A stretch of 64,000 nucleotides of DNA from Deltaproteobacteria bacterium (GCA_040218735.1 JAVJQW010000057.1:32001-96000); one strand, 5' to 3'. Counted from the first letter of the stretch, positions 12,478 through 53,230 are shown. Translations and numbers: made by a program. Notes: generated from the letters alone by a model not told the origin.

Positions 12478-12986
12478 TCCTCGTCCTCCTCGGCGTGCTC
12501 GCGCTGGTCGACGGCGCCTTCTGCGGCTTCCGCGCGTCGGCCGGCCGCAACCCGCGCATCTTCCTGTGGCCCTACTACGCGACCGCGATGCGCCGCGGGC
12601 TCGCGTTCGCCGCCGTCTTCGTCGTCGTGTTCCTCGGCGCAGGGCTCGCGGTTCGGTTCGGCGTCTCGCAGGCGACGTGGAACGCGCTCGAGATCGCCGC
12701 GTCCTCGATGGTGCAAGTGTACGGCGTCTACGCGACGCTCGTCCTCGCGGCGCTCGCGCTCTACGGCTTCGGTGCGTTCGACCTCTCGGTGCTCGCGACC
12801 GTCATCGTGCTCGGGCCCTTTACGCTCATTCGCCCGCTCGTGATCCTCGGCGGCGCGATCTACGGCGCATCACGAACGGACGACCCGATCGTGTGGCTCT
12901 TCGCGATCGCGGCGGCGTTCGTGATGATGTCGTTCGAACGCATCATCGCGCTGGGGCGCCCGCCCTGGCACGACACGATGCCCTGA
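12474..12986 (+). CDS. Hypothetical integral membrane protein
   Basis: ATGA overlap with the methyltransferase stop; about 4-5 hydrophobic segments; GGAGG RBS. Confidence 0.75.
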   Translation: MILVLLGVLALVDGAFCGFRASAGRNPRIFLWPYYATAMRRGLAFAAVFVVVFLGAGLAVRFGVSQATWNALEIAASSMVQVYGVYATLVLAALALYGFGAFDLSVLATVIVLGPFTLIRPLVILGGAIYGASRTDDPIVWLFAIAAAFVMMSFERIIALGRPPWHDTMP

Positions 12987-12988
12987 GC

Positions 12989-37114: not shown

Positions 37115-38791
37115 ATGCGCCGCCCGATCGCATCGTTCATCGCCGTCGCTCTTCTCGCTCTGGGATGCCAGGGGAAGATCGGCGAGCTGCCGTACTTGGA
37201 AGGCAAGGCCGAGCGCGAGCGCCCGCCGACGCCGCCCAAGTGCGACGACCCGGGCATCAAACCGAGCGACGTGCCCATTCGCCGCATCACGGACGTCCAG
37301 TACAACAACACCATCGCCGCGCTCTTCAACGGGCGTATCCAACCGAGTACGAAATTTCCGCGCACGACCAAGGTCGCCGGTTACTCGACCGCGCCCGAAG
37401 CCAACGTCGTCACGGCGCTCGGCGCCGAGGAGATCATGCGCGCCGCCGAAGACGTCGCGGCGCAGGCGATCGTGTTCCTCCCGGAGTTCTTGCCCTGCGC
37501 TCCCGACGCCAACGAAGCGTGCGCCCAGCAGTTCGTCACCGACTTCGGCCGACGTGTGTTCCGGCGACCGCTGCGCAGCGAGGAACAGACGCTGCTGATG
37601 GGGCTCTATCGTGACGTCGCGGCGGACACCGAGTTCCGCGTGAGCATCGCGGTCGTACTCTCCGCGATGCTGCAGATGCCCGCGTTCCTCTACCTCGTCG
37701 AGGAGGGCCGCCCGAACGTCGAGGTCGAGCCCGGCATCATTCCACTCAGTGGATTCGAGGTCGCCAACCGCCTCGCCTTCCTCTTCACCGCCAGGCCGCC
37801 GGACGGCACGTTGCTCGCGGCGGCGGAGGCCGGGGAGCTCGACACCGTCCAAGGCGTGGAAGCCCACGCGCGGCGGCTGTTGTCGGACCCGGCGGCCATC
37901 GAGGTCATCAGCGGTTTCTCGCGGGAGTGGATGCAGGTCGACGAGTTCCAGGTGAGCGACAAGGACGCGACGCTGTTCACGGAGTACGACGCCACGTTGG
38001 CGGCGTCGATGTCCGACGAGGTCGATCGCTACGTCGCCCACGTGATGCGTGACCTCGGGGGCTCGCTCTCGGCGCTCCTCACCGCGCAGACGACGATGGT
38101 CGACCAACCGCTCGCGCGCCTGTACGGGCTCGGCGATCAGGTCAGCTCCGGACCGGGCGACTGGCGCGTCGTCTCGCTCGATCGCGCGCAGCGCTCCGGG
38201 CTGCTCTCGCGCGCGTCGGTCGTCGCGCGACACGCGCACGCCGCGAACACCTCCCCCGTGAAACGCGGCAACCTCGTGCGCACGCGTTTCCTCTGCAACG
38301 AGCTCCCAGCGCCGCCGCCCGGAGCACAGACCAACGTCCCCGAGTTCCCGCCGAACCCGACCGAGCGGGACAAGTCGGCGGTGATGGTCGCCTCCGAGGA
38401 CTGCGGCGGCTGCCACCTCCTGCTGAACCCGATCGGAATCGGCTTCGAGAACTTCGACGCCCTCGGGCGCTGGCGCGACCAGCTCGACGACGGCCGGGCG
38501 ATCGACGCGAGCGGCGTCGTCGAGGGTTCGCCGATCGGCGCGTTCGACGGCGTCGCGGACCTCAGCCAGGCGCTCTCCGAGAGCCCCGCGGTGCACGCCT
38601 GCTACGCGGAGCAGTGGTTCCAGTACGCGTTCGGTCGGGCGAAGGAGCTTCAGGACCGATGTACGGTCGCGTCGGTCGAAGAGCGCTTCGTCGAGACGGG
38701 ACTCAGCATCCCCGAGCTGCTCGTGCAGCTCACGAAGACGGACGCCTTCAGGTACCGACGCACCGTCGAGATGCAAAACCGCGTTCCTTGA
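37115..38791 (+). CDS. DUF1592/DUF1588-family (PSD/PSCyt) lipoprotein with CxxCH
   Basis: Lipobox ALGC; IRRITDVQYNNT, FGRRVFRRPL, PAFLY, TSPVKRG, CGGCH, GFENFDALGRWR. Confidence 0.92.
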   Translation: MRRPIASFIAVALLALGCQGKIGELPYLEGKAERERPPTPPKCDDPGIKPSDVPIRRITDVQYNNTIAALFNGRIQPSTKFPRTTKVAGYSTAPEANVVTALGAEEIMRAAEDVAAQAIVFLPEFLPCAPDANEACAQQFVTDFGRRVFRRPLRSEEQTLLMGLYRDVAADTEFRVSIAVVLSAMLQMPAFLYLVEEGRPNVEVEPGIIPLSGFEVANRLAFLFTARPPDGTLLAAAEAGELDTVQGVEAHARRLLSDPAAIEVISGFSREWMQVDEFQVSDKDATLFTEYDATLAASMSDEVDRYVAHVMRDLGGSLSALLTAQTTMVDQPLARLYGLGDQVSSGPGDWRVVSLDRAQRSGLLSRASVVARHAHAANTSPVKRGNLVRTRFLCNELPAPPPGAQTNVPEFPPNPTERDKSAVMVASEDCGGCHLLLNPIGIGFENFDALGRWRDQLDDGRAIDASGVVEGSPIGAFDGVADLSQALSESPAVHACYAEQWFQYAFGRAKELQDRCTVASVEERFVETGLSIPELLVQLTKTDAFRYRRTVEMQNRVP

Positions 38792-40227: not shown

Positions 40228-41250
40228 CTAGCGACGAGGAATGAGGCGCGCCTCGGGTTCGAGCGCGACGCCGAACACCTCACGCACGCGCGACTGAATC
40301 CGAGCCGCGAGCGCGCGCAGCGCGGCGGTCGTGCCGTCGCCCAGGTTCACCAACGCGAGCGTGTGTTTCGTGGAGACACCGACGCCGTCGCCGCGGGTGC
40401 CTCGCTCGATGCCCGCGTTCTCGATGAGCCACGCGGCGGAGAGCTTCGTCTGGCCTTCGCCGGCGGGGTAACGCGGGACGTTCGGGTGGAGCTTCGCGAT
40501 GTCTTCCGCGACGGCGACGTCGACGATGGGGTTCGTGAAGAACGACCCCACGCTGCGGCGGTTCTCGTCGTCCGGATCGATCACCATCGACTTCTTGCGG
40601 CGGAGCGCAAGCACGGCGTCCTTCACCGCGACGAGGGTCCGGGGTGTGTCGCCGAGTGAACGATCGAGCTCGGCGTAGCGGACGGTGGGTGCACCGCCGG
40701 GACGCAGCTGGAACGTGACGTCGAGGACTACGTAGCGGTTGGCCATTCGTTTGAATAGACTGTCGCGGTAGCCGAACCCACAGCCTTCGGCGTCGAAGAC
40801 GACGACGCCGTCCGCCTCGCGGTCGTACACACGCACCGCGGTGACGACCTCGCTGACCTCCTGTCCGTAGGCGCCGACGTTCTGAATCGGTGTAGCGCCC
40901 GCCGAGCCCGGGATGCCGGCGAGGCACTCGACCCCGGCGAGGTCGCGCGCGACGGCGCGTTCGACGAACGGCCACCACGGCATGCCGGCGCCGACGGACA
41001 CGGTGCCGTCGGCCTCGAAGCGCTCGGCGTCGAGCGCGACGCGGAGGACGAGGCCGTCGAAGCCGTCGTCGTCGAACACGACGTTCGAGCCGCCGCCCAG
41101 GACACACACCGGGATACGACGCCGGTCCGCTTCACGCAGTGCGTCGATCAGCGCGGCTTCGTCGCGGGCTTCGTAGTACCAGCGGGCGGGGCCGCCCAGC
41201 TCGATCGTGGTGAGGGGCGCGAGCGGCTGCGACCGAGCCCAAGACGCCAT
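40228..41250 (-). CDS. murB: UDP-N-acetylmuramate dehydrogenase
   Basis: LGGGSNV, GIPGSAGATPIQNVGAYG, FGYRDSLFK, GSFFTNP, KHTLALVN. Confidence 0.97.
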   Translation of the reverse strand: MASWARSQPLAPLTTIELGGPARWYYEARDEAALIDALREADRRRIPVCVLGGGSNVVFDDDGFDGLVLRVALDAERFEADGTVSVGAGMPWWPFVERAVARDLAGVECLAGIPGSAGATPIQNVGAYGQEVSEVVTAVRVYDREADGVVVFDAEGCGFGYRDSLFKRMANRYVVLDVTFQLRPGGAPTVRYAELDRSLGDTPRTLVAVKDAVLALRRKKSMVIDPDDENRRSVGSFFTNPIVDVAVAEDIAKLHPNVPRYPAGEGQTKLSAAWLIENAGIERGTRGDGVGVSTKHTLALVNLGDGTTAALRALAARIQSRVREVFGVALEPEARLIPRR

Positions 41251-41321
41251 GGCGCACGCTACCACGCTTGCGCCGATCACGGGCTTGACCGCGTCCGGCC
41301 GAGGTGGAACCTGTTTTCATC

Positions 41322-41942
41322 ATGCAGCGCTTGGTTCTCTGTCTCTCCTTGCTCTCGGCGATGGCCTGCTCTTCCGGCGACGACGACACCGACATCGTCA
41401 TGATTCGCGACGGCGGCGTGCGCGACGGCGGCGTGCGCGACGGCGGCCGAGACGGCGGCACGCAGGCCGTCGAGGTGCGGAGCTTCACCGCGACCTTCGA
41501 GACGCAGGGGTGTCAGGTGCCGTGCGTCATCGCGACGTACAACCTGAACCTGCAGCTCGGGAACACGTCGGAGTTCTTCAAGGTCTCGAAGATCACCGAG
41601 TTCCGCGTGCAGATCGGGACGTTCGACATCAACATGAGCAACCGCGACTGCACGGGCGCGTGGTGGCAGGTCCCGACGCGCGGCATGACGACCATTCAGC
41701 AGATCCCCGTCGAGCTGTTCGACGTCGCGGAGGACGACATGGCGCGCAACGACAACGCGGCGCTGCGCTTCGACTGCAACGGCAACGAGGACGTCGTCAT
41801 CAACCTGCAGTACATGCCGGACCAGCGCCCCCAACGCAGCGAGATGGTCTCGATGGTCATGCGCGGCGAGCTCGAGGACGGCACGCCGTGGGAGGTCGCC
41901 GCGGACGCCACCGCCACCTGCTCCGACGTCCCCTGCCTGTAG
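41322..41942 (+). CDS. Hypothetical lipoprotein
   Basis: Lipobox AMAC; RDGG repeat linker; beta-rich domain with several Cys. Confidence 0.75.
   Translation: MQRLVLCLSLLSAMACSSGDDDTDIVMIRDGGVRDGGVRDGGRDGGTQAVEVRSFTATFETQGCQVPCVIATYNLNLQLGNTSEFFKVSKITEFRVQIGTFDINMSNRDCTGAWWQVPTRGMTTIQQIPVELFDVAEDDMARNDNAALRFDCNGNEDVVINLQYMPDQRPQRSEMVSMVMRGELEDGTPWEVAADATATCSDVPCL
41406..41459 (+). repeat. Intragenic tandem repeat (CGCGACGGCGGCGTG) encoding RDGGV/RDGG
   Basis: Two perfect 15-bp copies at 41406-41435 plus two partial copies. Confidence 0.85.
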
Positions 41943-42061: not shown

Positions 42062-45000
42062 ATGCCTGTCACGACTGGTTCTCGCAACGCAGCGCGTCCT
42101 TCGGCCCCCTCGGTCGCACCTCGTCGGCCCCAGGGGGGCCCGAGCGGGCGAACGATCGAGCTGGTGAAGCTCGACAAGCTCGAGCGCACCGACAGCGCCG
42201 AGCTGGGTAAGACCACCGCGACCAAGCTCCTCGGCACCATCACCGAGCTCAAGGACGTCACCGGCACTGGGCAGGAGAGCGCGGCGAAGGGTGACCCGCG
42301 GGTGACGCTGCGGCGCCGCCTGGTGGCGACGCTGCTCGCCGACCGGTCCGGCTTCGTGAAGCGCGACGAGCTCGAGGCCCTCGGCGACAACGTGAAGGCC
42401 GACATCAAGTGGCTGCTCGACGCCGAGCGCCGCGAGTACACGGCCGACGGGACGAACCAGTTCAGCTGGGCGCAGTCGGTGATGTCCAGCGGCTCGACGA
42501 TCGAGAGCTACTTCAAGAAGCGCGTGAAGTCGCAGCGCGAGCACGCCGAGCGGATCGAGGCGGGCACCGACAAGTTCTTCAAGGCGGACGAAGGTAGCGT
42601 CGTCGGTCTGTCGTTCATCGAGGGCGACGACCTGCGCGCGGGCTCGATCGTCGACGCCCTCCTCCAGTTCCGCGCGAACACCAAGAGCACCAGCAGCAAC
42701 AACCGCGCGGACAAGGTCGGCCCTTCGCTGCTCGCCGAGCAGCGCATCCTCCTCGCGAACAGCGACATCTCGGATCTGTCCGACCCCACGGAGCGCCGGG
42801 AGCTCGGGCTGCTGCGCGCGATGATCGCGTCGCACCCGAACAACTCGATGAACGCGATCTTCGAGGCGCGGAACGCGGTCGCCGCGATCTTCCTCGACGG
42901 CGAGGACGCGGGCGCCGTCTATTCGGACCGCCGCAACGGCAACGCCGACTTCGCGACGAGCTGGATCATCCGCGAGAAGCCGCCGGGCGCCGACGTGTCG
43001 CCCTACTCCGCGATTCACCACAACTTCTCGACGAGCACGCCCAAGGTCATCGCGTCGATGGTCGACAACTGGCTGCTCCCGATCGGCGAGGAGTCGGTGC
43101 GCAGCACGGCGTTCCTGACCGCCGCCGACGTCCTCGAAGCCGCCCAAGAGGGCGACCGCGAAGGCGCCGTGAAGATCCTCGAAGGCCTCGAAGGCGACGT
43201 CGCCGCGACGCTCGCCGACCTGAAGAAGGTCGTCGACTCGGCGCCGGCCGGCGAGCTCGAGCAGAAGGTCGTCGACTACCTGCAGTCGGTGTCGACGAAG
43301 GACTACGGCGCGAACAAGGCCGGCAACATCCATATGGCGGCGGAGCTGTACCGCCACGTCTGCGACGACCGCCCCTCGCGTGAAGGCCTCTCGGAGAAGT
43401 TGTTCCGCGCCGGCGACGCCTGGCCGGAGGTCGCCGAGGTCCTGTTCGCGATCGACAAGGAAGACGACAACATGATCCTGCGCGAGCTGGGTGAGGCGCG
43501 CATCGCGCTCCGCAACGGCATCGCGACGGTGCGTTCGGGGTTCGAGCGGCAAGAGCTCATCCTCCTCGACGCAGACCTCGACCGCATGGTCCTCGAGGAG
43601 CTGGGCTCCGCGGTCACGCGCGTCGGTCGCCACGAGACGGACGAGCAGAAGACGGAGGCGCTCTGGGCGCTGTCCGCCGCGCTGCGGAGCGCCGTGGCGA
43701 GTGGCCTCGACGTGATGCACGGCGAAGACTCGACGATGGCCGATCGCAAGGGCCTCGACGAGCTGCGGCTCGAAGTGAAGAACGTCCTCAAGGAGGGCAA
43801 GATCGACGAGGGTGACTACCGCCGCTTGATGGCGGAGGTCCGGCTCGCGATCACCGGCACCATCCAGGACATCCGTTCGTACTTCGACGAGCGGGCCGCG
43901 GAGGTCGCGACGGGCGGCGTCGAGCTCGACCCCGAGTTCCACGACCAGTTCATCAAGCAGAGCGCCCTGCACTACGCGACGGCGATCGCAGACGTGGGCA
44001 TGACGGTCGGCCTGAAGGAGGAGATCTCCGCGGACCGCATCGCGAACGTCGAGGGGATGCGCATCCTCAACAGCATCGGTCGCGTCGTGTTCTCGAACGT
44101 CGTCGCGGCGGAGAACACGAAGGAGCTCGCCGAGCTCAAGCCGGAGAAGGACGCGCTCTCCGTCGTCTACGCGCTCAACGAGAAGAAGATGGTCGCGGTC
44201 GGCGGGCTGATCGTCGACACCGAGCACGCCCCCGGCGGCAACAGCCACCTCAACATGTACGCGATGAACAACGGCATCGCGGTGCTCGCGCTCCCCGAGC
44301 TGCGCACCAAGTACGCCGAGTTCTTCGAGACCGCGTCGAAGCCCGAGTCGGAGGGTGGCGGCGGCATCTACATGTCCGAGGACAACGGCGAGTTCCAGAT
44401 GCTCACCGTCGCGCGCGCCAAGGCCGAGGGCCTGCTGAAGGCCGACGAGGTCGACGAGCTGCGCCCCGGTCTGAACCGTCGCATCGAGTATCTGAAGTCG
44501 AACGCAACCGGCGACGCGTTCGAGGTCGTCGCCAAACACGCCGCGATCATCTCGCCGGAGCGCCGCACTCGGGACGTGCAGCTGTACATCCCGATGGACG
44601 AGGTGAAGGGCCTCGGCAAGCGGTGCCTCTCGTTCGACGAGATCGCGACGCTCGGCACACACGCGCGGCACCTCGTCGGTGAGAAGACCGCAGTGCTCGC
44701 GCTGATGCGCGCGAACCCGAAGCTGCGGAAGTTCATTCCGCCGGGGTCAGGCGTGACGACCGGCCGCATCCGCGAGCTGCTCAAGGAGGCGAAGGCGCCG
44801 ACGGCCGACAACGCCGACCGCACGCTGAACGACCTGTGGAAGCAGCCGTGGCTCGACGACCCCAAGGTGGGCACCGTCGACGACACGAACATCTACGAGT
44901 CGGCGTTCTACACGGACAAGGACTACCGCGCCGACATGCGGAACGAGCTGCAGCACACCACGAAGGAAGCGCTGACGAACCTGCTCATCGCGACCGACGG

Positions 45001-45655
45001 CAACGGCGACAAGAAGCTCACCGACGCCGGTCAGAAGCTCTACGACGAGCTGTTCGGCAACCCGGAGCTGGCGGACAAGCCGCTGTGGATCACGCGCTCG
45101 AGCTTCACGGGCGAGGACCGCCCCGGCAAGAGCGGCGCGGGTCAGTACGAGTCGCCGGTGCTGCTGGGCGACGCCATCTCACGCGTCGAAGGCCTCATCA
45201 CCGTCATCGAGAGCACGTGGATGCCGGAGCCGATCGAGAACAACGTCGCGGACGAGATCGACCTCCGCTACATCATGCCGTCCATCGGCGTGCAGGAGTG
45301 CCTCGATCCTCAGTACTCGGGCGTGATGATCTCGCGCGACATCCAGCACGGCACCCGCAACAAGGTGACGTACCAGCTGGTGAAGGGCTTCGGCGGCGGC
45401 GTCGAAGGCGGCAAGACCGAAGAGGGTGTCATCAACGCCCACGGTCACCACGTCAGCGTCGAGTACCCCGGTGAGCCGGACGGCCTCGTGGACGCGGCGG
45501 CGCTCAAGGAGCTGCGCGAGATCATCCTCGAGATCGAGAAGATGTTCCACGAGACGATCGAGCCCGGGAAGGGCTACGCCGTGGACTGCGAAGTGTGCCG
45601 AGTGGACGACGAGTGGAAGGTCGTCCAGGCGCGCGTGATCTTGATGGACAAGTAG
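42062..45655 (+). CDS. Large dikinase with glucan water dikinase-like architecture (helical domain, phospho-His domain, C-terminal nucleotide-binding domain)
   Basis: PGGNSHLNMYAMNNGI (His729); VGEKTAVL, RSSFTGED..SGAGQYES, GVQECL..YSGVM, VDCE..VVQAR; no PEP-binding barrel. Confidence 0.85.
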   Translation: MPVTTGSRNAARPSAPSVAPRRPQGGPSGRTIELVKLDKLERTDSAELGKTTATKLLGTITELKDVTGTGQESAAKGDPRVTLRRRLVATLLADRSGFVKRDELEALGDNVKADIKWLLDAERREYTADGTNQFSWAQSVMSSGSTIESYFKKRVKSQREHAERIEAGTDKFFKADEGSVVGLSFIEGDDLRAGSIVDALLQFRANTKSTSSNNRADKVGPSLLAEQRILLANSDISDLSDPTERRELGLLRAMIASHPNNSMNAIFEARNAVAAIFLDGEDAGAVYSDRRNGNADFATSWIIREKPPGADVSPYSAIHHNFSTSTPKVIASMVDNWLLPIGEESVRSTAFLTAADVLEAAQEGDREGAVKILEGLEGDVAATLADLKKVVDSAPAGELEQKVVDYLQSVSTKDYGANKAGNIHMAAELYRHVCDDRPSREGLSEKLFRAGDAWPEVAEVLFAIDKEDDNMILRELGEARIALRNGIATVRSGFERQELILLDADLDRMVLEELGSAVTRVGRHETDEQKTEALWALSAALRSAVASGLDVMHGEDSTMADRKGLDELRLEVKNVLKEGKIDEGDYRRLMAEVRLAITGTIQDIRSYFDERAAEVATGGVELDPEFHDQFIKQSALHYATAIADVGMTVGLKEEISADRIANVEGMRILNSIGRVVFSNVVAAENTKELAELKPEKDALSVVYALNEKKMVAVGGLIVDTEHAPGGNSHLNMYAMNNGIAVLALPELRTKYAEFFETASKPESEGGGGIYMSEDNGEFQMLTVARAKAEGLLKADEVDELRPGLNRRIEYLKSNATGDAFEVVAKHAAIISPERRTRDVQLYIPMDEVKGLGKRCLSFDEIATLGTHARHLVGEKTAVLALMRANPKLRKFIPPGSGVTTGRIRELLKEAKAPTADNADRTLNDLWKQPWLDDPKVGTVDDTNIYESAFYTDKDYRADMRNELQHTTKEALTNLLIATDGNGDKKLTDAGQKLYDELFGNPELADKPLWITRSSFTGEDRPGKSGAGQYESPVLLGDAISRVEGLITVIESTWMPEPIENNVADEIDLRYIMPSIGVQECLDPQYSGVMISRDIQHGTRNKVTYQLVKGFGGGVEGGKTEEGVINAHGHHVSVEYPGEPDGLVDAAALKELREIILEIEKMFHETIEPGKGYAVDCEVCRVDDEWKVVQARVILMDK

Positions 45656-45668
45656 GGAGGGAGCTTCG

Positions 45669-45992
45669 ATGCCTTACACCACCACCGCCGAGCAGTTCCT
45701 CGACGAGAAACTCCCCGCCGCGCTGTGCGACGGCAGCCCGCTGCGTGGCCAACCGTACCTCGTGAAGTTCGTCATCGAGGGCGTGGGTACCTGGTTCGCG
45801 GACTTCGCGACCGGATCCGTGGCGCGCGAGGGCGGCCTCGTCGACGTCATCGTCCGCGCACGCCCGCGTGACTTCATGGCGGTCATCGAGGGGCGCATGA
45901 GCCCGCAAGATGGCTTGCTCACCGGCCGCCTGCACCTCGCCGGTGCGGTCTCGAAGATCTCTGCCCTGATGAAGGTGCTGCGTCATGCCTGA
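45669..45992 (+). CDS. SCP2 sterol-binding domain protein
   Basis: GVGTWFADF..DFMAVIEGRMSPQDGLLTGRLHLAG; GGAGG RBS. Confidence 0.85.
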   Translation: MPYTTTAEQFLDEKLPAALCDGSPLRGQPYLVKFVIEGVGTWFADFATGSVAREGGLVDVIVRARPRDFMAVIEGRMSPQDGLLTGRLHLAGAVSKISALMKVLRHA

Positions 45993-46206
45993 GGAGACGA
46001 GCACCGGCCTCTGGGCCATCCACTCCACCAAGGACCACAAGCCGCTCATGCGCGGCTGGGCGAACAGCAAAGGCGAAGCCGAGGCGATCCTCACGCAGCT
46101 GAAGGCGTCCGACCCGGAGCCCGAGGACGAGTACTGGATCCTCGAGATGTCCGAGGTCGAGGCGGACAACTTCCGCCTCACCGAGCTGCTCCACGACTTC
46201 GTCTGA
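45985..46206 (+). CDS. Small acidic hypothetical protein (73 aa)
   Basis: Overlaps the SCP2 stop; GC3-rich codons; fills the gap in the operon. Confidence 0.7.
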   Translation: MPEETSTGLWAIHSTKDHKPLMRGWANSKGEAEAILTQLKASDPEPEDEYWILEMSEVEADNFRLTELLHDFV

Positions 46207-46236: not shown

Positions 46237-47847
46237 ATGCCGACCAACATCCAAGACCGCGGACTCAAGCGCGCCCTGCAGCAGGTCATCTCCGACCGCA
46301 CCGCTGGTGCGCCGACGCTCAAGATCAACGAAGAGATGATGAACAACATCATCCTCGAGGTCGCGGACTCGCCGTTTGCCACGCGCGGTCAGGTCGAGAA
46401 GCGCCTCGCCGACGCCGGCACGCCCGCCGAGCGCCTCGCGGTCGTGCAGAAGGGCCTCGATGACGGCGAAGCGAAGGACATCGCGAAGATGCTCGCGCAC
46501 CCGTCCTTCGCCCGGATGCTCGAGCCCGCCGCCGAGAACTTCCTCAAGGCGGTCATTGGCGCCGAGCCGCTGAACCCGAGCCTGTTCGGTACGAACGGCG
46601 CCGCGCCGGTGTCGTCGCCGACGATCACGCCCGAGGCGAAGGCCGCCGTCGCCGAGATGAAGGGCCTGATTCAGTCCCGCCAGCTGCAGAAGTACTACGA
46701 CGCGGCGATCGGCATCGGCGACGCGTCGCTGAAGGACAAGGCGATCAAGCTCTTCGAGGCGCTCCCGACCGTGCACTCCGCGACGACCGCGGACGAGATG
46801 GTCGCGCTTGGGCTGTGGACGACCAAGCCGCGCGGCATCGAGGCGATGCAGACCTCGGCGCGTTACCTCCCGGGCCGTCAGCTCGTCGTCCCGGCGAAGG
46901 TGAACACCGACCTGCGCTCCGGCCGTGACTTCCTCGCGTGGGACGACAACGGCGTCGAGGCCCTCACCTACCGCGCTACGCTGGTGAGCGAGGACGGCGA
47001 CAACTTCATGGTGAAGATCGACGGCAAGGACGACCCGATCGCCGTGCCGAAGGAGACGGTCTACAAGCGCAACCAGCCGCACATCATCGAGGGCAAGAAC
47101 GTCCGCATCGGTTCGAAGCAGGCCAACTACGAGGACAAGTTCCTCAAGGCGAAGGTCTGCGAGGCCGCGCTCCGCATGGACGAGCTCGTCGGTCGCCTCG
47201 ACTTCACGAAGCTCCAGGCGTCGCCGCAGGGCGGCGGCCTGCTGTCCGTGTTCGGCGGGCGCGGCAACTCCGGCGAAGACATCTCGGCGATCCAGCGCAA
47301 GTGCGTCGGCATCATCCACGACGTCATCGACATGAAGTACCGCACGTCCAACGCCCGCAGCGATCCGGGCCGCGCCGACACCAACGACGCGGGTCGCCTC
47401 GCGGTGAAGGGCATCGGTGTCTGCAACGAGCAGGCGGCGGTGATGGGCGCGATGCTCACCCCGTTCCAGGACCTCATCGGGTTCGACTTCGCGATGATGT
47501 CGGGCGGCGTGTACCGCAACACGAACCGCAGCGGCTCGATGCAGGATCAGTACAGCACCTTCCGGCGTCCGGCCCACGGCTGGATCCAGGTCACATACCG
47601 CCCCTCGATGGAGATGCGGATCATCGACCGCACCTGGCAGCAGAAGGACAAGCCCGCCGACCTCGCGTACTCACCGGGCGGCGACCGCTTCCCGAGCGGC
47701 TACCAGGGCGGCATCCCGGTCGCGGCGATCGAGTCGACCGACGTGGTCATGGACGGCTCCGTCACCGTCGACACGTACGACCGTCAGTTCGGTACGGCCG
47801 GCGTCGACGACCGCACGAACCACATGTCGAATCGCGACGACCACTAA
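46237..47847 (+). CDS. Transglutaminase-like (Cys-His-Asp) domain protein
   Basis: GIGVCNEQA, HGWIQV and IIDRTW in the expected order; no signal peptide. Confidence 0.8.
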   Translation: MPTNIQDRGLKRALQQVISDRTAGAPTLKINEEMMNNIILEVADSPFATRGQVEKRLADAGTPAERLAVVQKGLDDGEAKDIAKMLAHPSFARMLEPAAENFLKAVIGAEPLNPSLFGTNGAAPVSSPTITPEAKAAVAEMKGLIQSRQLQKYYDAAIGIGDASLKDKAIKLFEALPTVHSATTADEMVALGLWTTKPRGIEAMQTSARYLPGRQLVVPAKVNTDLRSGRDFLAWDDNGVEALTYRATLVSEDGDNFMVKIDGKDDPIAVPKETVYKRNQPHIIEGKNVRIGSKQANYEDKFLKAKVCEAALRMDELVGRLDFTKLQASPQGGGLLSVFGGRGNSGEDISAIQRKCVGIIHDVIDMKYRTSNARSDPGRADTNDAGRLAVKGIGVCNEQAAVMGAMLTPFQDLIGFDFAMMSGGVYRNTNRSGSMQDQYSTFRRPAHGWIQVTYRPSMEMRIIDRTWQQKDKPADLAYSPGGDRFPSGYQGGIPVAAIESTDVVMDGSVTVDTYDRQFGTAGVDDRTNHMSNRDDH

Positions 47848-49277: not shown

Positions 49278-49429
49278 GGCTCCACTCTCGCGATCGATGG
49301 CCGCAGAGTCACTTGCCGCCGATCGCAAGCGAAGCGTGCCCTACACCACGGACGGACGGCCCAGCCCATCGGTGCCCCCCCGAACGGCCGGCCTTTGAGG
49401 CGACCCTCCGGGTCTGGTACCCCGTGCCC

Positions 49430-50386
49430 ATGTCCGAAATCACGTACGAACGCATTCAACCGCTGATCGCCGCCACCGAGCAGCGCGGCAGCTCCATGCA
49501 CGCGACCTTCACGTGCCCGGTCACCGGCGTCTCCGTCGCCTCGACCGCGTCCATCCAACGCGGCAAGGGACTCGTGGACGTCGCCAAGCAGTCCGCGAAG
49601 AAAAACGTCATGTGGAGCATCCGAAGCTCCGTCGCACGCACGGTTCGGAGCGTCCTCGGCTCCGGCATCCTCGGGCGGGTCGGCACCGACATGGCGCGCG
49701 AGGTCATGAAGAACGTCGAACAGGGCGCGAAGGACAGCTTCTCCGACGACGAGAAGAACGCCGCCGTCGTGCAGGCGTTCGAGGCCGTCGCCTCCACGTT
49801 CGTCTGGGATCCCAAACGCGGTCAGTTCGTCGGCGCGTCGGCGACCGAGCAGAGCGGCTTCGACGCCCAGCTCGCCAACGCACCCGTCACCGAGAAGTTC
49901 GATCGCGGCGTGCTCGCGCGCCTCCTCGTGGAGATCGCCGCGGCCGACGGCAAGGTCGACGACGACGAACGCGCGTTCCTCGAAAACTTCGTGACCCCCG
50001 ACGTCGGCACCGTCGACGCGCTCCTCACCCGCGGCGCGCTGTCGGGCGCGGACCTCGGCGAGACCGCGCAGGGCGCGTCACGCGAGACGATGATCATGCT
50101 CGCGTGGGCCGTGGCCTTCGCGGACGAGGAGCTCGAGATGAGCGAGACCCGCCGCATCGTCGACGCCGCCCAGCACCTCGGCGTCGGCGGCGACCGGGTC
50201 GACACCCTCAAACACGAAGCGCAGCTGCACCTGTACGATCAGGCGCTCGGCAACGTGTACGCCTCGGGCAGCCAGGACACACGCGCCAAGGCCGACGCCG
50301 ACGCCTTCGCCGGCCGAATCGGGATGAGCGCGGAAGACATCGAGCGCGCCGACGCACGCTACCGCCGCCGCCACGGCCTCGTCTAA
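49430..50386 (+). CDS. TerB-like domain protein
   Basis: IAAADGKVDDDERAFL and AVAFADEELEMSE metal-binding motifs. Confidence 0.8.
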   Translation: MSEITYERIQPLIAATEQRGSSMHATFTCPVTGVSVASTASIQRGKGLVDVAKQSAKKNVMWSIRSSVARTVRSVLGSGILGRVGTDMAREVMKNVEQGAKDSFSDDEKNAAVVQAFEAVASTFVWDPKRGQFVGASATEQSGFDAQLANAPVTEKFDRGVLARLLVEIAAADGKVDDDERAFLENFVTPDVGTVDALLTRGALSGADLGETAQGASRETMIMLAWAVAFADEELEMSETRRIVDAAQHLGVGGDRVDTLKHEAQLHLYDQALGNVYASGSQDTRAKADADAFAGRIGMSAEDIERADARYRRRHGLV

Positions 50387-51237
50387 GCGGAGGTCGACGT
50401 CTTCACGGGCGCCGAGTCGATCGCCGACTCGGCGTCCTCGAGCTCGTCCGACTGCGGGAACTTCTCGCGCATCTGTTTCAGCGCGCTCCGCGCCTTCTCG
50501 AGCTCACCGAGCTTCACCCACGCTTCGACGATCTCCGCGAGCAGCTCGTCGTCGAGCCCTACGTCCTCGAACTCGCGGCGGATGACCTCCAGCCGACCGA
50601 CGTACGCGCGGTCGCGCTCTAGGTTCTTGTAGAAGTCCGCCACGTAGCGCTCGTGCGCCATCAGGCGGCGGCGCACGTCGTCGAGCACCTTCTTCGCCTC
50701 GGTGATGTTCTCGTCGTCCGGGAAGCGCGAGACGTAGTCGCCGAGCGCGCGCGCGGCGTCACGCACCGCGCTCTGGTCCTTCTCGTGCGCGGGCGGGAGC
50801 AGGAAGAAGTTGCTCGGGATCTGCTCGAAGTACGCCATCCCCACCTTGTAGAGCGCGTACGGGACCTTCTCGTGCGTGGGGTGCAGCCGGACGAAGTTCT
50901 GGTAGCTGTCGATCGCCTCGATGTGGCGACCGCGCTGGAACTGGCAGTCGGCGATGCGGAGCTCCGACTTCACCGCGTAACGCGAGTAGGGAAACTTGGT
51001 GCGGATGTACCCGAAGTACCGCTGCGCGCCGAGGTACTCCTCGCGCTGGAACGCGTCCTCGCCCTTGATCCAGTTGCCCTCGGCCGTGCGCTCGTACCGC
51101 ACCGTCGGTGCCGCCTCGCCGCGCCCCGGCGCGTAGGAGGCGTTGTCGACCTCCGGCTCCTCCTCCCCGCCCTGGTTGGACGAGGCACACGCCGCGAGCG
51201 TCAACGCCAACAGGCCCGCCCAGAGTCGTCGGTCCAT
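50383..51237 (-). CDS. bamD: Outer membrane protein assembly factor BamD
   Basis: Lipobox LAAC; FPYSRYA, FVRLHPTH, YALYKVG, DQS, HERYVADFY. Confidence 0.93.
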   Translation of the reverse strand: MDRRLWAGLLALTLAACASSNQGGEEEPEVDNASYAPGRGEAAPTVRYERTAEGNWIKGEDAFQREEYLGAQRYFGYIRTKFPYSRYAVKSELRIADCQFQRGRHIEAIDSYQNFVRLHPTHEKVPYALYKVGMAYFEQIPSNFFLLPPAHEKDQSAVRDAARALGDYVSRFPDDENITEAKKVLDDVRRRLMAHERYVADFYKNLERDRAYVGRLEVIRREFEDVGLDDELLAEIVEAWVKLGELEKARSALKQMREKFPQSDELEDAESAIDSAPVKTSTSA

Positions 51238-51421
51238 CGCCGCCCCGCTTAACACACCTGGTCGCGAGCGGGCGACACTTCGCGCCGGGTGGGGACAATC
51301 ACGCCTTTCGGGTGTCGGGCCTCCGTCCGTTCGACGCTTCACAAACACCGTGCGGACCGAAGATCCTAGGCGGACCTTGGCCGTCGACCGCACCGCGCCT
51401 CGCTTCATGTGGCGCCCGCTG

Positions 51422-53230
51422 ATGGGCATGCTCGACGCCGTCGAGGCCCCCGTCGACACCCCGGACGACACGCCGATCCTGCTCCTCGTCAGCCCCGGCA
51501 AGAAGGGCCTCGACGCACACGGCGTCGCCCCCGAACCCCTCACGGACGGCGAGCGACAGGTCCTCACCGAGTGCCCCGAACCGATCCCCCTCTCGGCGCT
51601 CCCGGACCCCCTCCGCGTCAGCCTGTGGGGAACGCTGGGGCCCGGCTTCGAGCCCGCGCTCCTCACGCAGGTCCACCCGGGCGTCATGAACCCGTTCGAC
51701 ATGCGCGCGCTCGCGAACCTCGACGCCGCGTCGCGCAGCACCCTCGAGGCCTACCTCGATCCCGACTTCGTCCGACGCCCCGTCGCCGAAAAAGCCGAGG
51801 TGCTCGAGGCCCTCGGTCCGTTGCTCGCGCCCGGGCACGCCGAGCGCCTCGCCGACGTGCACCTCCCGCTGCCGTTCGTCTCCTCGTCGGGTCGCACCAT
51901 GACCTTCGCCTTCGAACGCGAAGCTGTCCTCCTGCACAACCCGCTGGTCCTCGACTACTACGCACCCGATCCCAGCGGCGCGCTGAACCCCGCGGCGCTC
52001 GAGCCGCGCACCCAGCGGGTCGAGGGCTTCCTGTCCTCCCTGCGTGAGCTCGTCGCGGACGGCGTGGTGCTTCCGCAGTTCGAGCGGCTGTCGGACGAAG
52101 CCAAGCTCGGCGCGCTGCGATGGAAGGACCTCAACGTCGCGGGTCGGCTCGTGTACCTCGACCTCATCGCCGAGAACGTCGACAGCAACGTCGCCCTCTA
52201 CCGGATCGACGACCCGAAGCAGACGCCCAAGAAGGAGACCGCGCCGCCGACGGTCGCGAAGCGACTCCTCTGGGAGGGCCCGCCGCTCGGGGTCTACGAA
52301 GTCACCACCGAGAAGGGCGGATACGACACCCTCGACGTCCTCTTCGCGGACCGCGCGTTCATCCTGCGGATGGTCGAAGCCGGCAACGGACACGTGCACC
52401 GCGTCGTCGATCTCCCGACGCCCGACGACGTGAAGACGCTCGGCCCGAAGCTCGTCACGCACTTCGCCTACGAAGATCTCTTCCTCATGACCTCGGCGTG
52501 GGCGCGCGGGCTCCCGACGCTCCACCACACGAAGCTCAAAGTGCACCGAGCCACGATGCTTCAACGCACGATCGACAAGATGCGGACCGGCAGCATCACC
52601 CACTTCGACCTGTGTGACCTCAAGGCGTACGGCACCGGCATCCGCTCCAGTCAGACCTACGACGGCGACGGGTCCCTGTTCGGAGGAGAGCTGCGAAACC
52701 TCGGCGCGGGCGGTGAGCTCTGGTTGCAGTCGACCGTCCTGCGCAGCGCCAAGATCCTCTCCACGGGTGCCTTCGAGAAGTACGAACCGCTCCCCGCGGC
52801 CTGGAACGCCGGGGACCCGTCTGTGCTCACCGCCGCGCTCGACGCCGCGAAGAAGGACGGCGCGCTGCAGAAGATCGCCGAGGACGTGGACATCGACTTC
52901 GCGACGCTCCTGAACCTGTCGACGAAGGCCGCGAAACGTGGCGAGCTGACGGAGCCCTACCAGCTCGCGTCGCCGCTGTGGGCGTGGGACGCGCTCCCGA
53001 GCGTCACCCCCGAGCAGGCGACGGACATCGCCAAGAAACAGAAGGCATTCACGAAGCGGCTCCTCGAGCTCGCGCGCGGCGTCTCGCGCGCGAAGAAGAA
53101 CAACCGCCCGATCGACCACGGCAAGCTCCGCACGAAGATCGTCGAGGCCGTCATGCAGTTCCACGCCGAGGTCCGCACGGACCAGATCGTCGAAGAGATC
53201 TTCGACGCGGCGTTGAGGCAAGACGCGTGA
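51422..53230 (+). CDS. Hypothetical protein with putative amidoligase/glutamine synthetase-fold motifs
   Basis: Ordered motifs GVYEV, GHVH, KAYGTGIR, GGELR. Start uncertain (51407, 51422 or 51428). Confidence 0.6.
   Translation: MGMLDAVEAPVDTPDDTPILLLVSPGKKGLDAHGVAPEPLTDGERQVLTECPEPIPLSALPDPLRVSLWGTLGPGFEPALLTQVHPGVMNPFDMRALANLDAASRSTLEAYLDPDFVRRPVAEKAEVLEALGPLLAPGHAERLADVHLPLPFVSSSGRTMTFAFEREAVLLHNPLVLDYYAPDPSGALNPAALEPRTQRVEGFLSSLRELVADGVVLPQFERLSDEAKLGALRWKDLNVAGRLVYLDLIAENVDSNVALYRIDDPKQTPKKETAPPTVAKRLLWEGPPLGVYEVTTEKGGYDTLDVLFADRAFILRMVEAGNGHVHRVVDLPTPDDVKTLGPKLVTHFAYEDLFLMTSAWARGLPTLHHTKLKVHRATMLQRTIDKMRTGSITHFDLCDLKAYGTGIRSSQTYDGDGSLFGGELRNLGAGGELWLQSTVLRSAKILSTGAFEKYEPLPAAWNAGDPSVLTAALDAAKKDGALQKIAEDVDIDFATLLNLSTKAAKRGELTEPYQLASPLWAWDALPSVTPEQATDIAKKQKAFTKRLLELARGVSRAKKNNRPIDHGKLRTKIVEAVMQFHAEVRTDQIVEEIFDAALRQDA

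What the first reader, a model, noticed from the sequence alone, without database searches (positions are those of the whole stretch)
42062..45655. Bacterial homolog of plant alpha-glucan water dikinase (GWD/PWD)
Seen: a large helical region, then phospho-His (NSHL, His729), then a C-terminal nucleotide-binding domain (RSS at 1012), with no PEP-binding barrel. Known: this order is that of GWD/PWD; PPDK, PEP synthase and rifampin phosphotransferase carry the ATP domain at the N-terminus. Motifs look collinear with plant GWD as I recall it: LLRAMIAS/LLRMIMST, AIHHNFS/KLHNNTS, HMAAEL/HSGADL, LGEARIALR..ELILLDADLD/LLEARQELR..DLLFLDLALD, VRLAI/SRLAL, FHDQFIK/FTEEIIR, SHLNMYAMN/SHVSVRARN. No CBM or signal peptide is evident and the N-terminus is S/P/R-rich. 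Inference: polysaccharide phosphorylation in a bacterium, acting on its own glycogen or on prey or host glucan, and relevant to the origin of GWD.
Basis: partly seen in the sequence, partly recalled or inferred. Interest (0 to 1): 0.85.

Follow-up and report, generated by a model that had tools for sequence, protein, structure and literature searches.

The report
Myxobacterial GWD-ordered dikinase, four-gene module
This gene encodes an uncharacterised phosphate-transferring enzyme whose domains sit in the same order as in the plant starch-phosphorylating enzyme, but its conserved partner genes point to a lipid-like or other unknown target, not stored glucan.

Summary
The ORF 42062-45655 (+), 1197 aa, is real. 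Its anatomy is as described: a long all-helical region, a swivelling phospho-histidine domain (His729), and a C-terminal PPDK_N ATP-grasp. There is no PEP/pyruvate barrel, no CBM and no signal peptide. This is the domain order published for potato GWD1.

The order is not diagnostic of GWD. The same genome has at least five more proteins with a C-terminal PPDK_N. The Pfam GWD1 His-domain model does not hit this family, whose His and ATP domains score closer to rifampin-phosphotransferase/PEP-synthase-like proteins.

The key claim, that the helical region is homologous to the GWD central domain, could not be tested. No GWD sequence was reachable, and no GWD chain appeared in any search.

New here: the gene is the first of a conserved four-gene module, made up of the dikinase, an SCP2 lipid-carrier-like protein, a 73-aa protein and a Cys-His-Asp transglutaminase/NAT-fold protein. 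SCP2 follows the dikinase in 19 of 22 assessable loci, and one natural fusion joins the transglutaminase-like protein to the dikinase. No glucan-metabolism context is conserved.

Best reading: a new family of His-swivel dikinase with an unknown, probably hydrophobic or lipid-linked, acceptor. Glucan remains a minority possibility.

The parts
42062..45655 (+). Dikinase gene (DIK), 1197 aa. The start is uncertain: residues 1-28 are disordered, and the ESM Atlas record of this sequence begins at residue 35.
   Evidence: (GC3 0.94)
42194..43999 (+). All-helical region, residues 45-646 (about 29 helices), the presumed acceptor-binding domain. The most conserved polar residues are R480, R496, D503, R611, D628 and K632.
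   Evidence: No credible PDB match. No similarity to RPH-like proteins.
44024..44461 (+). Swivelling phospho-histidine domain, residues 655-800. The catalytic His729 codon is 44246-44248.
44624..45655 (+). C-terminal PPDK_N ATP-grasp nucleotide-binding domain, residues 855-1197. Invariant residues are R869, G873, E874, K875, R1012, E1018, D1019, E1177 and R1191.
45669..45992 (+). SCP2-family protein, 107 aa, starting 13 nt after the DIK stop.
   Evidence: Pfam SCP2 E 1.9e-8. Immediately downstream of DIK in 19 of 22 assessable loci. Complex prediction gave weak support, ipSAE 0.35 against best control 0.00.
45985..46206 (+). Conserved 73-aa protein (SMALL). It overlaps the SCP2 stop by 8 nt and has no Pfam family.
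   Evidence: Present in 15 of 27 loci.
46237..47847 (+). 536-aa protein (U536) with an invariant Cys396-His447-Asp464 and a transglutaminase/arylamine-N-acetyltransferase-like fold at the C-terminus.
   Evidence: Present in 14 of 27 loci. Fused to DIK in P0051.

Best explanation
The gene encodes a member of a small, uncharacterised family of histidine-swivel dikinases. The family is found almost only in Myxococcota-type metagenome genomes.

Inferred mechanism, by homology with PPDK, PEP synthase, RPH and GWD: the C-terminal ATP-grasp binds ATP. His729 on the mobile domain takes the beta-phosphate, and the gamma-phosphate goes to water. The phospho-His domain then swings onto the all-helical N-terminal domain and passes the phosphate to a hydroxyl of an acceptor held there. 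D628 and K632 on the penultimate helix are candidate acid/base residues. The net reaction would be ATP + acceptor-OH + H2O -> AMP + acceptor-O-phosphate + Pi.

The domain order (acceptor domain, His, ATP) is the GWD-type circular permutation of the RPH order (ATP, acceptor domain, His).

The enzyme does not work alone. It is the first gene of a conserved module: DIK, SCP2, a 73-aa protein and a Cys-His-Asp transglutaminase/NAT-fold protein. SCP2 is the universal partner.

I therefore infer that the acceptor is hydrophobic or carries a lipid tail, and that the SCP2 protein presents it. It could be a lipid alcohol, a lipid-linked glycan or a hydrophobic metabolite. It is less likely to be a free storage glucan.

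Shown: the ORF, the domains, the conserved catalytic residues, the gene module and one fusion.
Inferred: the dikinase chemistry, the role of SCP2 and the class of acceptor.
For: Domains and catalytic residues.

Family size and range:
- 59 clusters in 5.8 billion proteins.
- 77 hits at E<=1e-3 in 1.84 billion representatives.
- 26 loci in genome contigs. By record title, 23 are named Myxococcota, Myxococcales, Myxococcaceae, Archangium or delta-proteobacteria, 1 Bdellovibrionales, 1 Pseudomonadota and 1 'bacterium'.
- The helical region is found in 26 of 401 sampled genomes of the phylum.

Module:
- SCP2 lies directly downstream in 19 of 22 loci with at least 350 bp of downstream sequence. This includes relatives of only 32-34% identity (L020, L021, L025).
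- U536 is in 14 of 27 loci and SMALL in 15 of 27, in changing order and orientation but always adjacent.
- P0051 (2062 aa) is a U536-DIK fusion.
- In the window the four genes are on one strand, with a 13-nt gap, an 8-nt overlap and a 30-nt gap. No terminator-like site lies between them on the + strand.
- Complex prediction of DIK(30-860) with SCP2 gave weak support. The median score was 0.35 (runs 0.35, 0.41, 0.25) and the best of 3 controls was 0.00. The mark was reached by 58 of 80 solved complexes and 2 of 110 mismatches, but scores of 0.60 or less were seen in only 7 of those 80 and in both mismatches that passed. Partner pLDDT was at least 77 and run agreement at least 45%.

U536: invariant C396, H447 and D464. 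Best fold matches are arylamine N-acetyltransferases, transglutaminases and Rad4, at E 0.03 or weaker, probability up to 0.98.

Accessory genes in variants are a Gln_deamidase_2 gene (L001, L002, L014) and a PhyH gene (L005).
Against: Nothing identifies the acceptor. SCP2 adjacency is context, not chemistry, and the complex score is weak.

Three assessable loci lack SCP2 next to DIK: L019, L023 and L024, though L024 has an SCP2-like ORF upstream. The paralogue in this same genome has an FMN-dependent dehydrogenase gene downstream instead.

Pointers towards a glycan acceptor exist:
- A genuine LysM (CBM50) is inserted in an ATP-grasp loop in 5 of 59 homologue clusters.
- A GH57 gene lies two genes upstream in the loci of that same sub-clade (L006, L008, L009).
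- The position of D628/K632 resembles that of the published E900/E901/R904 of StGWD1.
- The ESM Atlas first hit for the whole protein is a plant cluster with PPDK_N + GWD1_pHisD and CBM20 in 12% of members (score 0.94, 201 of 256 features). A bacterial 714-aa cluster scores the same, and the helical part alone gave no usable hit.

The transglutaminase-like and glutamine-deamidase partners would fit a peptide or protein substrate as well.
Confidence: 0.45

Rival explanations
1. It is a true bacterial relative of plant GWD/PWD. On this reading the helical region is homologous to the GWD central domain, and the enzyme phosphorylates an alpha-glucan (the cell's own glycogen or prey glucan).
For: The domain order is the same as in StGWD1, with a very short link between the all-helical domain and the His domain. 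Conserved D628/K632 lie on the penultimate helix 101/97 residues before His729, against the published E900/E901/R904 at 92/91/88 residues before H992. E707 lies 22 residues before the His, against E971 at 21 residues. The Atlas first hit is a plant PPDK_N+GWD1_pHisD cluster. A GH57 gene lies near the module in 3 loci.
Against: PF22973 (GWD1_pHisD) does not hit the protein, and hits 0 of 25 family members at E<=1. There is no CBM45 or CBM20. The His and ATP domains score closer to RPH/PEP-synthase-like proteins (E 3.9e-5 and 3.3e-27) than to the PF22973-positive 724-aa family (E 0.078 and 1.7e-10). No GWD chain appeared in four profile or sequence searches of PDB sequences at E<=10, nor among the 50 rows that Foldseek listed. 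I could not establish whether 9HA9/9QVI are in those copies. The helical part alone gave no Atlas hit. No conserved glucan-metabolism neighbours were found. The literature read states that GWD is not seen in glycogen-accumulating organisms (bioRxiv 10.64898/2026.09.25.754361, passages only). The motif strings are recollections and were chosen after looking at the sequence.
Confidence: 0.17
2. It is a protein- or peptide-modifying module. The dikinase would phosphorylate a Ser, Thr or Tyr, or activate a carboxylate, on a protein or peptide, possibly the 73-aa product. The transglutaminase-like partner would act on a glutamine or amide of the same substrate.
For: A Cys-His-Asp transglutaminase/NAT-fold partner is conserved and in one case fused to DIK. 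A Gln_deamidase_2 gene follows SCP2 in L001, L002 and L014, and within the 8 kb held on each side L014 has no U536. A small conserved protein is always adjacent where U536 is present.
Against: No tool result here points to a protein substrate for this superfamily. To my recollection no member of the PPDK_N/His-swivel superfamily is known to act on one. SMALL looks like a conserved folded protein along its whole length, not a leader-core peptide. SCP2, the most widespread partner, is not explained. SMALL and U536 are missing from the distant subfamilies that keep SCP2.
Confidence: 0.15
3. It is a xenobiotic or antibiotic-inactivating kinase like rifampin phosphotransferase. The NAT-like partner would act as a second inactivating enzyme and SCP2 as a binder of the hydrophobic drug.
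For: The closest solved relatives of the ATP-grasp and His domains are RPH and RPH-like PEP-synthase-family proteins. The best fold matches of U536 are arylamine N-acetyltransferases. The module has a patchy, accessory-like distribution: 26 of 401 genomes and 18 of 154 genera.
Against: The helical domain shows no similarity to RPH-like proteins (hhalign E 0.75). No match was found in 72,556 plasmid records. There are no resistance or efflux neighbours. The U536-NAT match is weak (E 0.03 or weaker).
Confidence: 0.1
4. It is a PEP synthase or pyruvate phosphate dikinase variant acting on pyruvate.
For: NCBIfam gives weak hits to PEP synthase models, restricted to the ATP domain: 28.3 bits against a cut-off of 598.
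Against: There is no PEP/pyruvate-binding barrel, and the protein ends with the ATP-grasp. The domain order is permuted.
Confidence: 0.02

Closest known systems
Plant/algal alpha-glucan, water dikinase GWD1 and phosphoglucan, water dikinase PWD (StGWD1; central-domain crystal structures 9HA9/9QVI, PMC13553574)
   Same: Both have an all-helical acceptor domain, then a His domain, then a C-terminal ATP-grasp. In both, the catalytic His opens a short helix, the helical and His domains are joined by a very short link, and a conserved acidic/basic pair sits on a late helix about 90-100 residues before the His.
   Different: This protein has no CBM45/CBM20 and no hit to PF22973 (GWD1_pHisD). It has about 600 helical residues against 444. 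Homology of the helical domains was not testable here. Its partners are SCP2, a 73-aa protein and a transglutaminase-fold protein, which to my recollection are not GWD partners. It occurs in bacteria with no conserved glucan gene context.
Rifampin phosphotransferase (RPH, Listeria; 5HV1/5HV3/5HV6/5FBS) and RPH-like 'phosphoenolpyruvate synthase' family proteins
   Same: These are the best solved matches for the ATP-grasp (Foldseek E 1e-8 to 1e-9; profile E 2e-16) and for the His domain (hhalign E 3.9e-5). They use the same ATP -> His -> hydroxyl chemistry on a hydrophobic acceptor (mechanism as summarised in PMC13553574 section 14).
   Different: RPH has the order ATP, acceptor domain, His, so this protein is a circular permutation of it. 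The helical domain shows no similarity to RPH-like proteins.
PEP synthase (2OLS, 8A8E, 9DAE) and pyruvate phosphate dikinase (1KBL, 5JVL)
   Same: They share the PPDK_N ATP-grasp and the swivelling His domain.
   Different: This protein has no PEP/pyruvate TIM barrel, and its ATP domain is C-terminal, not N-terminal.
Uncharacterised ~724-aa bacterial family with PF22973 (GWD1_pHisD) followed by PPDK_N (alignment A3; 11 of 401 sampled Myxococcota genomes at E<=1e-3, 4 over the Pfam cut-off)
   Same: The His domain precedes a C-terminal ATP-grasp, and the ATP-grasp is homologous (hhalign E 1.7e-10).
   Different: The region before the His domain is much shorter and unrelated. The His domains align only weakly (E 0.078). 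I did not examine that family's neighbours.
SCP2-domain lipid-presenting accessory proteins such as UbiJ of ubiquinone biosynthesis (recalled, not tested here)
   Same: A small SCP2-fold protein accompanies soluble enzymes that act on a hydrophobic substrate. This is the role I infer for the 107-aa partner (Pfam SCP2).
   Different: No ligand is known for this SCP2 protein, and the analogy is functional only.

Membership tests
GWD/PWD (alpha-glucan / phosphoglucan, water dikinases) | Domain order: central helical domain, then His domain, then C-terminal ATP-binding domain | tested here: met
   AF2 model and Pfam. StGWD1 order taken from PMC13553574 section 6. The order is not exclusive to GWD, because other bacterial families share it.
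GWD/PWD (alpha-glucan / phosphoglucan, water dikinases) | Catalytic histidine exposed at the start of a short helix of a swivelling domain | tested here: met
   His729 is nearly invariant, starts helix 729-737, and aligns to the catalytic His of RPH-like domains.
GWD/PWD (alpha-glucan / phosphoglucan, water dikinases) | His domain recognised by Pfam PF22973 (GWD1_pHisD) | tested here: not met
   No hit at E<=1 for the protein or for any of 25 family members. The genome search at E<=10 found only two faint matches, on contigs C66 and C60, not in this gene.
GWD/PWD (alpha-glucan / phosphoglucan, water dikinases) | N-terminal starch-binding module (CBM45 in GWD1, CBM20 in PWD) | tested here: not met
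   No CBM family in Pfam. Residues 45-646 are helices only.
GWD/PWD (alpha-glucan / phosphoglucan, water dikinases) | Central domain with the StGWD1 fold (20 helices in three clusters, 9HA9/9QVI) or sequence homology to it | tested here: inconclusive
   No GWD chain in PDB sequence searches with A1, A2, A6 or P0090 at E<=10, nor among the 50 rows listed by Foldseek. Whether 9HA9 is in those copies is unknown. VIA-align libraries were absent. No GWD sequence was obtainable.
GWD/PWD (alpha-glucan / phosphoglucan, water dikinases) | Conserved charged residues on the helix facing the catalytic His (E900, E901, R904 in StGWD1) | tested here: inconclusive
   D628 and K632 (spaced i, i+4) are nearly invariant on helix 626-632, 101/97 residues before His729, against 92/88 residues in StGWD1. 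The correspondence rests on position only.
GWD/PWD (alpha-glucan / phosphoglucan, water dikinases) | Transfers the beta-phosphate of ATP to C6 or C3 of glucosyl residues of alpha-glucan | not testable with these tools
   Needs the enzyme assay.
GWD/PWD (alpha-glucan / phosphoglucan, water dikinases) | Association with alpha-glucan metabolism | tested here: not met
   Of 101 non-module ORFs within 5 kb in 21 loci, GH57 occurs in 3, all from one sub-clade. No other glucan family appears among the 25 most frequent families.
PPDK_N / His-swivel dikinase superfamily (PPDK, PEP synthase, RPH, GWD) | PPDK_N ATP-grasp with conserved nucleotide-binding residues, plus a mobile His domain | tested here: met
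   PF01326 at 63.5 bits against a cut-off of 27. Profile hits to PEP synthase/RPH chains at E 2e-16. Foldseek match to 5hv6 with TMt 0.75. hhalign.
PEP synthase / PPDK | C-terminal PEP/pyruvate-binding TIM barrel (PEP-utilizers_C) and an N-terminal ATP-grasp | tested here: not met
   No such Pfam hit, and the protein ends with the ATP-grasp. NCBIfam PEP synthase models score 28 bits against cut-offs of 598-740.
Rifampin phosphotransferase | Order ATP-grasp, rifampin-binding domain, His domain, with a homologous acceptor domain | tested here: not met
   The order is permuted. The helical region compared with RPH-like proteins gives hhalign E 0.75. The NCBIfam RPH model scores 16.5 bits against a cut-off of 999.
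SCP2 sterol/lipid-transfer family (partner gene 45669-45992) | Match to Pfam PF02036 over its cut-off | tested here: met
   35 bits against a cut-off of 21.3. Orthologues score 39.5 and 47.4 bits. The distant L020 copy scores 23.9 bits.
Transglutaminase / papain-like Cys-His-Asp enzymes (partner gene 46237-47847) | Conserved Cys-His-Asp triad on a transglutaminase-like core | tested here: inconclusive
   C396, H447 and D464 are invariant in 10 sequences. Fold matches to NAT, transglutaminase and Rad4 are only at E 0.03 or weaker. No Pfam hit even at E<=10. One NCBI record names a homologue 'transglutaminase domain-containing protein'.

The most novel reading that the evidence does not exclude
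The helical region is the prokaryotic counterpart of the GWD central domain. If so, this Myxococcota family would be the first bacterial lineage carrying the acceptor-His-ATP core of the starch dikinases, and it would bear on where eukaryotes got GWD. Its native job would be to phosphorylate a glycan, not a small molecule, for instance a lipid-linked or GlcNAc-containing glycan. In that picture the SCP2 partner holds the lipid tail, the LysM insert of one sub-clade holds the sugar, and the papain-fold partner acts on an attached peptide.
Probability: 0.2. Interest if true: 0.85.

Novelty: new variant of a known kind. Interest (0 to 1): 0.55.

Why it matters
His-swivel dikinases are a small set of enzymes: PPDK, PEP synthase, phenol and rifampin kinases, and GWD/PWD. 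Each known type has a different acceptor.

This family has a large, conserved acceptor domain with no match to anything solved. It also has a fixed set of partner proteins, so it very likely marks an undescribed phosphorylation reaction in predatory soil and water bacteria.

If its helical domain proves homologous to the recently solved GWD1 central domain, it would give starch-phosphorylation research a prokaryotic relative to compare with, and a handle on the origin of GWD. In the passages I read from two papers, GWD is treated as a eukaryotic hallmark of crystalline starch.

If the domain is not homologous, the GWD-like order arose by independent permutation, which is a useful caution for annotation by domain order.

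Tried and rejected
Attempts to obtain a plant GWD/PWD sequence or structure for a direct test all failed:
- PDB sequence searches with the protein and with profiles A1, A2, A6 and P0090 gave only PEP synthase/RPH chains.
- Foldseek of the whole model listed no GWD entry among its 50 rows.
- ESM Atlas gives names only, and found nothing for the helical part.
- The exhaustive representative search gave 77 hits, all looking bacterial, including the long P0087, P0088, P0116 and P0117 that I inspected.
- Pfam accessions next to PF22973 are unrelated families.
- I ran no further search on GWD, because I estimated that exact 5-mer sharing would be too rare for it to succeed.

Readings I rejected:
- PEP synthase/PPDK function, because there is no barrel.
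- A defence system: PADLOC gave nothing for DIK, SCP2 or the 212-aa upstream ORF, and only a DrmD match at E 0.017 for U536.
- Plasmid carriage.
- Similarity between U536 and DIK. A weak HMM hit in L015 and L022 was not borne out by hhalign (E 0.72).
- MurB as a partner. It lies upstream on the other strand in the window only.
- My first reading of the LysM label in some homologues as a false match was wrong. One search looked at the wrong segment, and searches show a real ~43-aa insert.

Literature:
- A search for SCP2 + dikinase + phosphohistidine + Myxococc found 0 papers.
- PMC7569903 (passages only) has nothing on the central domain or on bacteria.
- For PMC13553574 I read the outline, sections 6, 8, 9, 12, 13, 14 and 36, and searched passages. 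Its supplementary figures (S8-S17), which could show the central-domain topology and conservation, were not available to me.
- For bioRxiv 10.64898/2026.09.25.754361 I read passages only.

Full report
WHAT IS THERE

The ORF at 42062-45655 (+) is the longest in its region, at 1197 aa. It has the third-position GC (0.94) typical of real genes in this 69% GC window.

Pfam finds one credible domain, PPDK_N (PF01326), at residues 870-1120 (E 2.6e-17, 63.5 bits against a cut-off of 27). It finds no PEP-utilizers_C barrel and no carbohydrate-binding module. NCBIfam gives only sub-threshold hits of PEP synthase, rifampin phosphotransferase and PigC models to the same C-terminal part.

An AlphaFold2 model built on 43 family members is confident (mean pLDDT 87.2, pTM 0.79). 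It shows:
- residues 1-28 disordered
- residues 45-646 helices only
- residues 655-800 a beta/alpha domain in which His729 opens a short helix
- three long strands at 805-842
- an ATP-grasp at 855-1197

Foldseek matches the ATP-grasp to the ATP domain of Listeria rifampin phosphotransferase (5hv6, E 1.1e-8, TMt 0.75), to Neisseria PEP synthase and to HpeI. It finds nothing credible for the helical part.

His729 (codon 44246-44248) sits in APGGNSH..A...G. These positions are nearly invariant across the family, as are R1012-S1013-S1014, K875, E1018, D1019, E1177 and R1191 of the nucleotide site. A local hhalign of residues 640-860 against the C-terminal swivel domain of five RPH/PEP-synthase-like proteins puts His729 on their catalytic His (probability 70.5, E 3.9e-5, 57 columns).

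IS THE ORDER GWD-SPECIFIC?

The published description of potato GWD1 gives CBM45, CBM45, an all-helical central domain (aa 483-926, 20 helices), a four-residue link, a His domain (931-1050, H992) and the ATP-binding domain (1069-1387). It notes that PPDK and RPH arrange the same modules differently (PMC13553574, sections 6, 8 and 13). This protein does share the GWD-type order.

The order is not peculiar to GWD, however:
- This genome (11.6 Mb, 70 contigs) carries at least five more proteins of 664-999 aa with PPDK_N at or near the C-terminus. One has a weak PEP-utilizers match before it.
- A ~724-aa family with a His domain followed by PPDK_N occurs in 11 of 401 sampled genomes of the phylum.

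That 724-aa family is hit by Pfam's GWD1_pHisD model (PF22973). The target family is not. There is no hit for the protein, none for any of 25 members at E<=1, and none on this gene in a genome search at E<=10.

By hhalign, the target's His and ATP domains score better against RPH/PEP-synthase-like proteins (E 3.9e-5 and 3.3e-27) than against the PF22973-positive family (E 0.078 and 1.7e-10). The two comparison alignments differ in depth, so this is only indicative.

THE HELICAL REGION AND GWD

This is the crux, and I could not test it. No plant GWD or PWD sequence or model was reachable through any tool:
- Four sequence or profile searches of PDB chains at E<=10 returned no GWD chain.
- None appeared among the 50 rows Foldseek listed.
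- I cannot tell whether the GWD1 central-domain entries 9HA9 and 9QVI are in those copies.
- The VIA-align libraries were not installed.
- The helical part alone gave no usable hit in the ESM Atlas.
- The helical part shows no similarity to RPH-like proteins.

Three things speak weakly for a relationship.

(i) Motif placement. Six of eight then find their best ungapped match in the entire protein at the claimed, collinear place, one of them only as a tie. Only two exceed what shuffled sequence gives at p<0.05, and the strings were chosen after looking at the sequence.

(ii) Published conserved residues. The GWD1 paper names conserved E900, E901 and R904 on the helix facing H992, and E971 in the His domain. 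Here D628 and K632 are nearly invariant even when 22-25%-identical relatives are included. They lie on the penultimate helix 101 and 97 residues before His729, and E707 lies 22 residues before it.

(iii) Atlas first hit. The first Atlas hit for the whole protein is a plant cluster with PPDK_N, GWD1_pHisD and some CBM20. A bacterial cluster scores the same, and all such hits share PPDK_N.

I rate homology of the helical domains as possible but unshown.

THE SURROUNDINGS

This is where the new information lies.

The family is small. There are 59 clusters in the 5.8-billion-protein collection and 77 hits in the 1.84-billion representative set. There are 26 loci in the species-genome collection, nearly all titled Myxococcota or delta-proteobacteria. 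The helical region is found in 26 of 401 sampled genomes of the phylum, and in 17 of 316 high-quality ones.

Comparing the window with those 26 loci shows a conserved module:
- SCP2. An SCP2-family gene (45669-45992 here; Pfam E 1.9e-8) lies directly after the dikinase in 19 of the 22 loci that have at least 350 bp downstream. This includes relatives of 32-34% identity. L019 and L023 lack it, and L024 has an SCP2-like ORF upstream instead.
- SMALL. A 73-aa protein (45985-46206, overlapping the SCP2 stop by 8 nt) is present in 15 of 27 loci.
- U536. A 536-aa protein (46237-47847) is present in 14 of 27 loci.
- SMALL and U536 are always adjacent to the dikinase, but in varying order and orientation.

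U536 has an invariant Cys396, His447 and Asp464. Its model (pLDDT 76) finds arylamine N-acetyltransferases, transglutaminases and Rad4 as best folds, though weakly (E 0.03 or weaker). Its family is as narrow as the dikinase's, with 77 proteins.

One database protein of 2062 aa (P0051) is a fusion of the U536-type protein and the dikinase.

A complex prediction of the dikinase (residues 30-860) with SCP2 gave weak support: median ipSAE 0.35 against a best control of 0.00. The tool's own calibration says that passes this low are more often wrong than right unless the pairing was likely beforehand.

Beyond these four genes nothing is conserved. Among 101 further ORFs within 5 kb in 21 loci, no Pfam family occurs more than three times, and the triples come from close relatives.

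Variants are informative:
- A glutamine-deamidase-type gene follows SCP2 in L001, L002 and L014. Within the 8 kb held on each side, L014 has no U536.
- A PhyH dioxygenase gene follows SCP2 in L005.
- One sub-clade (5 of 59 clusters) carries a genuine LysM inserted in a loop of the ATP-grasp. Its loci have a GH57 gene two genes upstream.
- A paralogue in this same genome (contig C29, 1225 aa) has an FMN-dependent dehydrogenase gene downstream and no SCP2.

HOW IT MOST LIKELY WORKS

By homology with the solved and studied members of the superfamily, the ATP-grasp binds ATP. His729 takes the beta-phosphate while the gamma-phosphate is released as Pi. The His domain then swings to the helical domain and hands the phosphate to a hydroxyl of the bound acceptor. 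This is an inference from conserved residues and fold, not a measurement.

The acceptor is unknown. The one partner kept across the whole family is an SCP2-fold protein, a fold known for holding lipids and other hydrophobic ligands. The cassette has no signal peptides, and glucan genes are not conserved around it. I therefore favour a hydrophobic or lipid-tailed acceptor presented by SCP2, with about one chance in three.

A glycan remains possible, whether alpha-glucan or the GlcNAc-type glycan that the LysM insert suggests. So does a protein or peptide, which the two papain-fold partners suggest.

COMPARISON AND VERDICT

It works like GWD and RPH, and it has GWD's domain order. I do not file it as a GWD/PWD member, because two defining features tested here were not met (the GWD-type His-domain model and a starch-binding module) and the decisive one (the central domain) is untested.

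It is best called a new family within the His-swivel dikinase superfamily, with a new set of partners.

Interest is moderate. This is a well-defined, conserved, unexplained enzyme module. It has a real but unproven chance of being the bacterial relative of the starch dikinases.

Noticed in passing
P0051 (database protein, 2062 aa); compare window 46237-47847 and 42062-45655: P0051 is a natural single-ORF fusion. A U536-type transglutaminase-like protein (residues 458-898, E 6.6e-155) is joined to the dikinase (residues 927-2062). Its first ~450 residues match nothing I tested.
   Followed up: partly
P0091 (database protein, 249 aa): A piece matching dikinase residues 575-701 runs directly into an SCP2 domain (residues 136-248). 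It may be a deletion variant or an assembly artefact.
   Followed up: no
Homologues P0044, P0046, P0049, P0054, P0055; insertion point corresponds to window ~44993-45010 (residues ~978-983): A real LysM domain (PF01476, 25.8 bits against a cut-off of 20.9) of ~43 aa is inserted in a hairpin loop of the ATP-grasp. It occurs in 5 of 59 homologue clusters. It is an unexpected glycan-binding module in a protein with no signal peptide.
   Followed up: partly
L006:2072-4585, L008:2224-4749, L009:2062-4575 (minus strand): A GH57 + DUF3536 gene (alpha-glucan-active family) lies two genes upstream of the module, separated from it by a Pol IV (IMS) gene. This is seen only in three loci of the LysM-bearing sub-clade.
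   Followed up: partly
L001:11755-12483, L002:11776-12507, L014:12433-13335; L005:12136-12885: A Gln_deamidase_2 (PF18626) gene follows SCP2 in three loci. One of them, L014, has no U536 within the 8 kb held on each side. A PhyH-family dioxygenase gene follows SCP2 in L005.
   Followed up: partly
G000 contig C29, L047:8454-12131 (+) and 12141-13223 (+): A second copy of the family (1225 aa; helical-region match E 9.6e-168) lies in the same genome. It is followed by an FMN-dependent dehydrogenase gene (PF01070, E 1.4e-135) and not by SCP2. L023 looks like the same arrangement: a 357-aa ORF follows its dikinase, and an FMN_dh hit appears in the neighbour tally.
   Followed up: partly
G000 loci L029, L031, L032, L033, L034, L036: The genome holds many PPDK_N proteins, eight ORFs in all counting the target. 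L032 is the C29 paralogue. Five others are unrelated at the N-terminus and carry the ATP domain at or near the C-terminus. One has a response-regulator receiver domain (L029), and one has a weak PEP-utilizers match before PPDK_N (L036).
   Followed up: partly
L037-L046 (alignment A3): A ~700-750-aa Myxococcota family has an unknown N-terminal part, a His domain hit by Pfam GWD1_pHisD (up to 30.5 bits in the genome search) and a C-terminal PPDK_N. By the His-domain model it is closer to plant GWD than the target family is.
   Followed up: partly
window 41304-41942 (+): A 212-aa ORF just upstream of the dikinase has a lipoprotein-like N-terminus, DGGVR repeats and no Pfam family. It is not conserved next to the module in other loci.
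   Followed up: partly
window 37115-38791 (+), 40228-41280 (-), 49313-50386 (+), 50383-51741 (-): These are ordinary neighbours: a DUF1592/1588/1585/1595/1587 (PSD-type) protein, MurB, a TerB-like protein and a BamD/YfiO-like lipoprotein. None is conserved with the module.
   Followed up: partly
window 42062-42164: The start codon is uncertain. The first 28 residues are disordered and S/P/R-rich, family conservation begins near residue 45, and the ESM Atlas record of this sequence starts at residue 35.
   Followed up: no
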